Origin: a virus
Lineage: Duplodnaviria; Heunggongvirae; Uroviricota; Caudoviricetes
Strand: one strand, 5' to 3'
Length of the DNA: 3,475 bases
Virus record (IMG/VR): IMGVR_UViG_2703718816_000014
Location: 1 to 3,475 of that record
Shown here: positions 1,594-1,728 of the stretch, piece by piece
Layout: each line of letters opens with the position of its first letter
Position numbering within the stretch: position 1 is the first letter of the stretch
Translations under genes and position numbers: made by a program
Notes under the pieces: generated by a model
Told to the model about the DNA's origin: nothing
Seen by the model: only the letters and a program-made list of their open reading frames with translations
Databases searched by the model: none

Positions 1594-1728
1594 TCATCCA
1601 CGGCAGTGGCACCACACGTCAAACATTCGTTTCACAACTTCACGGCAGTAGAAGCCGTCAACATCACGGGTCAGGTCGTAGCGATTGTCGAATGTGTTGC
1701 GAACCCAGAACTCAAAAGCCGTATGCAT
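1594..1728 (-). CDS. Hypothetical small protein, 44 aa (MHTAFEFWVRNTFDNRYDLTRDVDGFYCREVVKRMFDVWCHCRG); absent from ORF track because under 60 aa
   Basis: Hand translation of the minus strand. ATG at 1728..1726 is preceded by GGAGG (1739..1735) with a 6-nt spacer and lies 3 nt after the stop of the upstream 80-aa ORF. Its TGA at 1596..1594 is 18 nt before the xis start. It fills an otherwise unexplained gap in a tightly packed operon. No family recognised. Confidence 0.45.
   Translation of the reverse strand: MHTAFEFWVRNTFDNRYDLTRDVDGFYCREVVKRMFDVWCHCRG

What the first reader, a model, noticed from the sequence alone, without database searches (positions are those of the whole stretch)
1594..1728. 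Unannotated 44-aa Cys-containing ORF with a strong ribosome-binding site between the 80-aa gene and xis
GGAGG followed by a 6-nt spacer and ATG is as good a translation signal as any in the window, yet the ORF is below the ORF-track threshold. The product (MHTAFEFWVRNTFDNRYDLTRDVDGFYCREVVKRMFDVWCHCRG) has aromatic residues and three cysteines (CHC near the C-terminus). Its position directly upstream of xis-int suggests a possible role in modulating excision or early-left expression, which is speculative.
Basis: partly seen in the sequence, partly recalled or inferred. Interest (0 to 1): 0.4.

Follow-up and report, generated by a model that had tools for sequence, protein, structure and literature searches.

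The report
Conserved 44-aa phage accessory protein gene
The 44-codon reading frame just upstream of the excisionase gene is a real, conserved and already catalogued small prophage gene of unknown function, and the evidence does not tie it to excision.

Summary
The ORF at 1594..1728 (minus strand) is exactly as described: 44 aa, a single possible ATG, and GGAGG with a 6-nt spacer. Its predicted anti-SD pairing (-10.8 kcal/mol) ties with int as the strongest in the window.

It is a real gene. It is intact in all 92 related loci fetched (40 distinct DNA versions, 44-54 aa). pN/pS is 0.19 in its own frame, and every other frame is interrupted by stops in some or all sequences.

It is not new. RefSeq annotates it as a hypothetical protein (WP_044809728.1). 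Similar DNA is present in 899 of 5,426 complete E. coli genomes. It matches PHROG family 3871 (unknown function).

AlphaFold2 predicts a helix / beta-hairpin / helix mini-protein (pLDDT 89.6) with no annotated structural relative. The cysteines are not conserved in distant members, so a metal site is unlikely.

Most relatives sit directly before an excisionase gene of several different types. Others lie in nin regions, and two are in siphophages with no integrase or excisionase annotated. Dedicated control of excision is therefore not supported.

Best reading: a free-standing accessory micro-protein of the early-left operon, translationally coupled to its neighbours. It probably acts by binding a host or phage protein; that step is inferred.

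The parts
1594..1728 (-). 44-aa protein-coding gene (PHROG 3871 family; RefSeq WP_044809728.1, hypothetical protein). Predicted fold: helix 3-13, conserved hairpin loop RYDLTRDVDGFY, helix 30-43.
   Evidence: ORF. RefSeq CDS. phrog_3871 at E 1e-30, full length. Homologues at 59-95% identity. Intact in all loci. pN/pS 0.19. AF2 pLDDT 89.6.
1729..1739 (-). Ribosome-binding region GGAGG-TGATAC. It contains the TGA stop (1732-1734) of the upstream DUF4222 gene, 3 nt before the ATG. This geometry fits translational coupling.
   Evidence: Sequence. Pattern scan. Anti-SD duplex -10.8 kcal/mol. Purine-rich SD-like motifs or 1-4-nt start/stop overlaps in nearly all relatives.
1576..1593 (-). 18-nt spacer between the ORF's TGA and the xis ATG, carrying the xis SD (GAGG). 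In the 48-aa variants the spacer is 7-8 nt and the stop codon overlaps the SD (TGAGG).
1321..1575 (-). Downstream neighbour: excisionase xisR (DUF1233).
   Evidence: Pfam PF06806 at E 2e-29. RefSeq annotation.
1732..1974 (-). Upstream neighbour: 80-aa DUF4222 protein, the Pfam domain reported in the prophage/PICI regulator RgdR.
   Evidence: Pfam PF13973 at E 9e-14. RefSeq CDS. RgdR contains DUF4222 according to PMC10877973.
1..1287 (-). Tyrosine integrase, last gene of the same-strand array. The prophage is inserted at yecE.

Best explanation
SHOWN. The ORF is a real protein-coding gene under purifying selection. It encodes a 44-aa cytoplasmic mini-protein of a small Enterobacterales-phage family (PHROG 3871), predicted to fold as helix / beta-hairpin / helix. 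It lies in an uninterrupted same-strand array: Ea22 - 27-aa ORF - DUF4222 - this gene - xis - int. No promoter-like site was found on either strand of 1200-2700. No terminator-like site was found on the coding strand upstream of int; the only coding-strand hit (1247-1234) lies inside the int gene. The gene has the joint-strongest Shine-Dalgarno in the window. Its start lies 3 nt after the upstream stop, and its stop lies just before, or in relatives overlapping, the xis SD. INFERRED. It is transcribed on the early-left (pL-type) message after induction or infection. It is translated efficiently and is translationally coupled to both neighbours. Its product works on its own as a portable accessory ('moron-like') factor. 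It most probably binds a host or phage protein through the nearly invariant hairpin surface (R16 Y17 D18 L19 .. D22 .. G25 . Y27 .. E30). This would resemble the other small exo-xis and nin-region proteins of lambdoid phages that tune host physiology or the course of development. It is not a dedicated part of the excision machinery. Its place next to xis reflects its being the last gene of the accessory region, at a boundary where int-xis modules are exchanged.
For: Reality of the gene: intact and ATG-started in 92/92 loci, with 40 distinct DNA versions. Variable sites by codon position are 23/22/40. pN/pS is 0.19. The window-versus-Pantoea pair (L012, 63% nt identity) still shows pS 0.84 against pN 0.26. 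Other frames carry stops or give ratios near 2. Catalogued family: phrog_3871 at E 1e-30. Only 31 representative clusters at E<=1e-3 among 1.84 billion proteins, so the family is small. Fold: AF2 pLDDT 89.6, pTM 0.64. Operon setting. SD and coupling geometry. Independence from Xis/Int and from DUF4222: one allele group pairs with different xis/int modules, and one xis pairs with different alleles. The downstream gene can be DUF1233, a 70-aa Xis-like protein, AlpA/HTH_17, PrtN or a LexA-DBD protein. Members occur after NinG (L011) and NinH (L097). Members occur in vB_CfrS_K1M and CF-SP1, in a DUF2591-DUF551 cassette between tail genes, as intact ORFs with differing sequences. Precedent for small exo-xis proteins affecting development: PMC3824215, PMC8614690, PMC6213356.
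Against: No direct evidence of expression was found; the sequence is absent from the Sakai RIBOseq supplement. No target or phenotype is known. No structural or sequence relative has a known function. The 'binds a host or phage protein' step therefore rests on analogy only. The frequent adjacency to xis and one in-frame fusion with Xis (L093) leave some room for a link to Xis in the prophage context.
Confidence: 0.6

Rival explanations
1. Excision or directionality modulator. The peptide binds Xis or Int, or sets the amount of Xis made, and so tunes prophage excision.
For: It lies directly upstream of an excisionase-type gene in most loci, across at least four xis types: DUF1233, a 70-aa type, AlpA/HTH_17 and PrtN. 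Its stop codon adjoins or overlaps the xis SD. One natural in-frame fusion to a DUF1233 Xis exists on 2 contigs.
Against: Intact homologues occur in nin regions (L011, L097), before LexA-DBD genes with xis further away (L010, L012), separated from xis by another gene (L002, L094), and in vB_CfrS_K1M and CF-SP1, where no integrase or excisionase is annotated in what was inspected. Terminal position in the pL operon explains the adjacency without any functional link. The fusion is rare and could be a decaying prophage.
Confidence: 0.1
2. Partner or modulator of the adjacent DUF4222 (RgdR-like) protein. The two translationally coupled genes would form a two-component regulator of host gene expression.
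For: The stop and start are 3 nt apart, and the pair is co-inherited in most E. coli prophage loci. RgdR, a DUF4222 protein, is a documented prophage/PICI regulator of LEE and motility (PMC3378721, PMC10877973).
Against: Many family members have other upstream genes: a 74-aa protein, DUF551, NinG, NinH, a 55-aa CxxC protein, or the 27-aa peptide gene directly. DUF4222 alleles of 64-88% identity pair with the same 44-aa allele, which indicates free reassortment.
Confidence: 0.1
3. Metal-binding or redox-sensing cysteine micro-protein, with Zn bound through C28/C40/H41/C42. This would resemble the zinc-finger part of lambda Ea8.5 or Rac YdaE.
For: Three Cys and one His are present in the window protein. 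C28 and C42 are kept in about 90% of close homologues.
Against: Distant but clear homologues replace them: C28 becomes A, V or G; C40 becomes R, Y, S or F; H41 is variable; C42 becomes A, L or R. There are never four conserved ligands. In the model, C28 lies just before helix 2 and C40/C42 lie at its C-terminal end. There is no match to any zinc-finger family or solved structure.
Confidence: 0.05
4. Chance ORF, or a pure leader ORF whose translation alone matters (for coupling to xis) while its product is irrelevant.
For: It is short. The window holds 49 ORFs of 25 aa or more. The coupling geometry to xis is present.
Against: pN/pS is 0.19, with invariant residues across genera. The gene is conserved in contexts with no xis downstream. 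The fold prediction is confident.
Confidence: 0.03

Closest known systems
PHROG family phrog_3871 (unknown function). Members include RefSeq WP_044809728.1, Fels-1 STM0895.1n and BP-4795 ORF3.
   Same: Full-length profile match at E 1e-30. Same length. Same position before xis in Fels-1, BP-4795, YYZ-2008 and Stx1 phages.
   Different: Nothing of substance; the window gene is simply a member. The family has no described function.
Small exo-xis region proteins of lambda and Stx phages (Orf60a, Orf61, Orf63, Ea8.5, Orf55)
   Same: Small non-essential-looking genes on the early-left transcript between the recombination genes and xis. Lambda Orf55 (55 aa) occupies the same slot directly upstream of xis.
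   Different: No detectable homology to lambda Orf55 (hhalign probability 0.4%). No Pfam, PDB or BFVD link to any of the others. No phenotype has been measured for this family.
RgdR / DUF4222 prophage regulators
   Same: The immediately upstream, translationally coupled gene carries DUF4222, the domain reported in RgdR (PMC10877973).
   Different: The 44-aa protein itself is unrelated to DUF4222 and often occurs without it.
Rac prophage rcbA (ydaC), the gene directly upstream of xisR in E. coli K-12
   Same: Positional analogue next to a DUF1233-type xisR.
   Different: A different protein (69 aa, with an antisense ralA RNA). It was never recovered as a relative in the family homologue searches; no direct comparison was run. 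Rfam finds no RNA in the window.

Membership tests
PHROG phrog_3871 (phage protein family, unknown function) | Full-length match to the family profile HMM | tested here: met
   E 9.9e-31, residues 1-44 on profile positions 1-44 of 48.
Genuine protein-coding gene (as opposed to a chance ORF) | Frame preserved and amino-acid sequence under purifying selection in diverged relatives | tested here: met
   92/92 loci intact. 40 DNA versions. pN/pS 0.19. Excess variation at third codon positions (23/22/40).
Genuine protein-coding gene (as opposed to a chance ORF) | Direct evidence of translation (ribosome footprints, peptide) | not testable with these tools
   The sequence was not found in the Sakai RIBOseq supplement or in the full-text library.
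Zinc-finger or metal-binding micro-proteins (e.g. the Ea8.5 zinc-finger part, YdaE) | Four conserved Cys/His ligands | tested here: not met
   C28, C40, H41 and C42 are each replaced in clear homologues. No zinc-finger Pfam or PDB hit.
Excision accessory factor (functionally tied to Xis/Int) | Obligate genomic association with an integrase/excisionase module | tested here: not met
   Members lie after NinG and NinH (L011, L097). Members also occur in vB_CfrS_K1M, whose full annotation lists no integrase or excisionase, and in CF-SP1, where none lies in the 5.1 kb inspected.
Excision accessory factor (functionally tied to Xis/Int) | Effect on excision frequency, or binding to Xis/Int | not testable with these tools
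   Requires genetics or biochemistry.
Lambda Orf55 family (positional analogue upstream of xis) | Detectable sequence or profile similarity | tested here: not met
   hhalign probability 0.4%, E 0.17.
Exo-xis region genes of lambdoid phages (a positional class) | Located on the early-left strand between the recombination genes and xis | tested here: met
   In the identical genome the order is kil - ... - RecT - Gp157 - ... - DUF5405 - DUF2737 - Ea22 - DUF4222 - this gene - xis - int, all on one strand.
Exo-xis region genes of lambdoid phages (a positional class) | Influence on lysogenisation or induction | not testable with these tools
   No experimental data were found for this family.
Anti-defence or defence proteins | Match to a known defence-system component | tested here: not met
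   No PADLOC hit. Anti-defence libraries were not available.

The most novel reading that the evidence does not exclude
The family could be a new kind of portable phage micro-protein that inhibits or redirects a conserved enterobacterial host factor, for example an immunity or nucleoid/transcription component. Alternatively, in prophages it could double as a stoichiometric partner of Xis; the natural Xis fusion in L093 would then be a Rosetta-stone hint. Either way the conserved RYDLTRD-x2-G-x-Y hairpin would define a new interaction motif.
Probability: 0.12. Interest if true: 0.5.

Novelty: already known. Interest (0 to 1): 0.2.

Why it matters
It matters modestly. The gene family is carried by about one in six complete E. 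coli genomes (similar DNA in 899 of 5,426), including O157:H7 genomes and Stx1- and Stx2-converting phages. It is missing from several reference phage annotations (phiP27, VT1-Sakai). It has one of the two strongest translation signals in the early-left arm, so it is probably made in quantity on induction. Adding it to the list of uncharacterised exo-xis and nin-type micro-proteins is useful housekeeping for anyone dissecting Stx-phage induction. Nothing here overturns current understanding or opens a long-standing question.

Tried and rejected
1. Pfam, NCBIfam and PADLOC scans of the protein, plus a Pfam scan of 19 family members: no hits.
2. PDB sequence-profile search: only chance matches at E about 1.
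4. Exhaustive HMMER search: 31 clusters, no informative domain fusions. There was one read-through into Xis, and some repeat-protein false positives.
5. Lambda Orf55 as a homologue: rejected.
6. Zn-site idea: rejected on conservation.
7. Overlapping plus-strand ORFs 1566..1838 and 1606..1755: rejected. The opposite-strand frames carry stops in 13-37 of the 37 distinct sequences compared and show pN/pS near 2 or stops throughout.
8. Rfam on the whole window at E<=1: nothing. Promoter scan: no site on either strand of 1200-2700. Terminator scan: no coding-strand site upstream of int, one hit inside int at 1247-1234, and two plus-strand hits.
9. Literature: no paper holds the peptide sequence, STM0895.1n, phrog_3871 or the WP accession. 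Hücker 2017 supplements: absent. 'Cryptic Bacterial Microproteome': no mention of prophage or xis.
10. Fetching EDL933 NC_002655.2 to see whether rgdR has a family member beside it: the record is not in the collection.
11. A structure prediction of a peptide-Xis pair was considered and dropped.

Full report
**What the window is.**
The 3,475-base window is the left end of a lambdoid, Stx-phage-like E. coli prophage inserted at yecE. Bases 1-3115 are 100% identical to E. coli OkiPb01678 (NZ_AP042495) and to an IMG/VR contig. All genes read on the minus strand:
- int, 1..1287
- xisR (DUF1233), 1321..1575
- the 44-aa ORF, 1594..1728
- an 80-aa DUF4222 gene, 1732..1974
- an unannotated 27-aa hydrophobic ORF, 1979..2062
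- Ea22, which PGAP calls truncated
- DUF2737, 2520..2687
- DUF5405, 2684..2965
- an IS3-family transposase fragment from about 3116

In the identical genome the array continues upstream to Gp157, RecT and kil. This is therefore the distal part of the early-left operon. A consensus scan of 1200-2700 finds no promoter-like site on either strand. It finds no terminator-like site on the coding strand upstream of int; the only coding-strand hit (1247-1234) lies inside int. Rfam finds no RNA family in the window.

**Checking the observation.**
The coding-strand sequence upstream is GGAGG TGA TAC ATG. The TGA is the stop codon of the DUF4222 gene and is in frame with the ORF, so this ATG is the only possible start.

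GGAGG N4-9 ATG occurs twice in the window, at int and here. The chance expectation is 0.53, and 20 of 200 shuffles reach two matches. Predicted anti-SD pairing is -10.8 kcal/mol, against -10.9 for int and -5.5 to -6.8 for five other starts.

'Unannotated' is true only of some records. PGAP annotates the ORF as hypothetical protein WP_044809728.1. It also annotates a hypothetical protein in every sampled row with a full or partial match to the ORF, out of 899 of 5,426 complete E. coli genomes holding similar DNA, with up to four copies per genome. GenBank records of phiP27, VT1-Sakai and several others lack it.

**Is it a gene?**
Yes. The protein matches PHROG family 3871 (unknown function) at E 1e-30 over its full length. 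It has no Pfam, NCBIfam or PADLOC match.

Homologues at 59-95% identity occur in E. coli, Shigella, Salmonella (Fels-1 STM0895.1n), E. albertii, Citrobacter, Enterobacter, Klebsiella phages, Scandinavium, Superficieibacter, Pantoea and Serratia.

In all 92 loci fetched the frame is intact and starts with ATG at the aligned position. There are 40 distinct DNA versions, 44-54 aa long, and length varies only at the C-terminal tail.

Over 37 distinct 132-nt sequences:
- Variable sites fall 23/22/40 by codon position.
- pS is 0.53, pN is 0.098, and pN/pS is 0.19.
- The other two same-strand frames and all three opposite-strand frames contain stops. They give ratios near 2, except the codon-matched antisense frame (ratio 0.30), which has stops in all 37 sequences.
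- The most distant pair (window against Pantoea L012, 63% nt identity) still shows pS 0.84 against pN 0.26.

That criterion is not met, so the gene stands.

**What the protein looks like.**
AlphaFold2 with the 30-sequence alignment gives pLDDT 89.6 and pTM 0.64. The predicted fold is helix 3-13, a beta-hairpin-like loop, and helix 30-43.

Among the close homologues the invariant residues are R16, Y17, D18, L19, G25, Y27, E30 and R34. They cluster in the loop and at the start of helix 2. Across the wider family only F5, Y17, D22, G25 and Y27 stay at or above 90%.

The cysteines are not part of this core. In clear homologues C28 becomes A, V or G; C40 becomes R, Y, S or F; and C42 becomes A, L or R. 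A metal site is therefore unlikely.

An exhaustive HMMER search of 1.84 billion representatives finds only 31 clusters at E<=1e-3. The family is therefore small and lineage-restricted.

**Genomic contexts and what they say about function.**
In most loci the gene lies directly before an excisionase-type gene. Those genes are of several kinds:
- DUF1233 Xis of three divergence classes (100%, 87% and about 50% identity to the window's)
- a 69-71-aa Xis-like protein paired with an integrase only 27% identical to the window's
- AlpA/HTH_17-type proteins
- a PrtN-family protein

The same 44-aa allele pairs with different int-xis modules, and the same xis pairs with different alleles. The gene's 3' end is therefore a recombination boundary. 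This is also where the 44-aa (..CRG*) and 48-aa (..CRGLNVV*) forms diverge.

In the 48-aa forms the stop codon overlaps the xis SD (TGAGG, 7-8 nt before the ATG). In the window the spacer is 18 nt with GAGG. Upstream, the start is 3 nt after the DUF4222 stop, or in other contexts overlaps the upstream stop by 1-4 nt. The geometry is that of a translationally coupled operon gene; the coupling itself is inferred.

One assembly, seen on two contigs, has the gene fused in frame to a DUF1233 Xis because the stop codon is missing (L093).

Against a dedicated excision role, intact family members also sit:
- after NinG in a Serratia prophage (L011)
- after NinH in a metagenomic phage (L097)
- before a LexA-DNA-binding-domain gene in Pantoea (L010, L012)
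- one or two genes away from the xis position (L002, L094)
- in Citrobacter phage vB_CfrS_K1M and Salmonella phage CF-SP1

In the last two phages the gene closes a small DUF2591-DUF551 cassette inserted between the tape-measure-proximal and major-tail genes. The complete K1M annotation lists no integrase or excisionase. For CF-SP1 only 5.1 kb around the gene was inspected, and none is annotated there. The two copies differ from each other and are both intact.

The upstream partner varies just as much: DUF4222, a 74-aa protein, DUF551, NinG, NinH, a CxxC protein, or the 27-aa peptide gene.

The simplest account is that this is a free-standing accessory module that travels among the accessory-gene hot spots of enterobacterial siphophages. 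It ends up next to xis because it is the last gene of the early-left accessory region.

**Comparison with what is known.**
The slot directly upstream of xis holds orf55 in lambda (with ea8.5 next upstream) and rcbA in Rac. The family shows no similarity to lambda Orf55 (hhalign probability 0.4%).

Small exo-xis genes of lambda and Phi24B (orf60a, orf61, orf63, ea8.5, ea22) are reported to shift lysogenisation and induction (PMC3824215, PMC6213356, PMC7093339, PMC8614690). This gene belongs to that positional class but has never been studied. No paper in the library holds its sequence or identifiers. It is also absent from the supplements of the Sakai RIBOseq small-gene study.

Its upstream neighbour carries DUF4222. 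That domain is reported in RgdR, a prophage/PICI-encoded activator of LEE type III secretion and repressor of motility (PMC3378721, PMC10877973, PMC6092414). I did not align the window protein with RgdR directly.

**Verdict.**
It is already annotated in RefSeq and catalogued as a PHROG of unknown function.

The best-supported mechanism is an efficiently translated, translationally coupled early-left accessory micro-protein that acts on its own. It probably binds a host or phage protein through its conserved hairpin. The first half of that statement is shown; the binding mode is inferred by analogy.

A role in excision, a partnership with the DUF4222 protein, and a metal-binding function remain possible at about 10%, 10% and 5%. 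Interest is low: this is an ordinary, if uncharacterised, member of the phage small-protein 'dark matter'.

Noticed in passing
window 1979..2062 (-): A 27-aa hydrophobic [30 protein letters not shown], that RefSeq does not annotate. Its ATG overlaps the Ea22 stop (ATGA), and its stop lies 4 nt before the DUF4222 ATG. Five protein variants with conservative substitutions occur at the same place in 45 fetched loci. In L093 a further variant directly precedes the 44-aa-family gene. It is probably a conserved single-pass membrane micro-peptide.
   Followed up: partly
window 1732..1974 (-): The '80-aa gene' carries Pfam DUF4222, the domain reported in RgdR (ECs1581). RgdR is a prophage/PICI regulator that activates LEE type III secretion and represses motility in EHEC. 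Where RgdR has its RGD motif, this protein appears to have SGQ (RGQ in relatives). That correspondence was not checked by alignment.
   Followed up: partly
L093 3962..4336 (Logan DRR526068 contig): A family member reads through, in frame and without a stop codon, into a DUF1233 excisionase (..YEMWVHFNS-MPIDLNNWVTADLL..). It is either a natural peptide-Xis fusion or a decaying prophage. It is seen on two contigs.
   Followed up: partly
window 3116..3475: Identity to the reference prophage stops at 3115. The rest is the 3' part of an IS3-family transposase gene (orfB C-terminus on the minus strand, 3158..3364 and beyond). The IS has interrupted the early-left region just upstream of the DUF5405 gene.
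   Followed up: partly
window 2059..2544 (-): PGAP calls the Ea22-like gene a pseudogene that lacks its C-terminus. Its likely true start is the GTG at about 2522, preceded by AGGAGG. That would make it a third strong SD in the window, and the start overlaps the end of the DUF2737 gene.
   Followed up: no
L101 / L103 (Citrobacter phage vB_CfrS_K1M 20928..22009) and L102 (Salmonella phage CF-SP1): Two siphophages, with no integrase annotated in what was inspected, carry a small cassette of lambdoid exo-xis-type genes (DUF2591, DUF551, the 44-aa family) between tail genes, on the strand opposite to the tail genes. It looks like a moron cassette acquired from temperate phages.
   Followed up: partly
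L001 1702..1718 (NZ_AP042495): The integrase CDS overlaps the 3' end of the DUF72 (yecE) CDS by 17 nt. This suggests that the prophage end supplies the last bases of the yecE (DUF72) reading frame.
   Followed up: no
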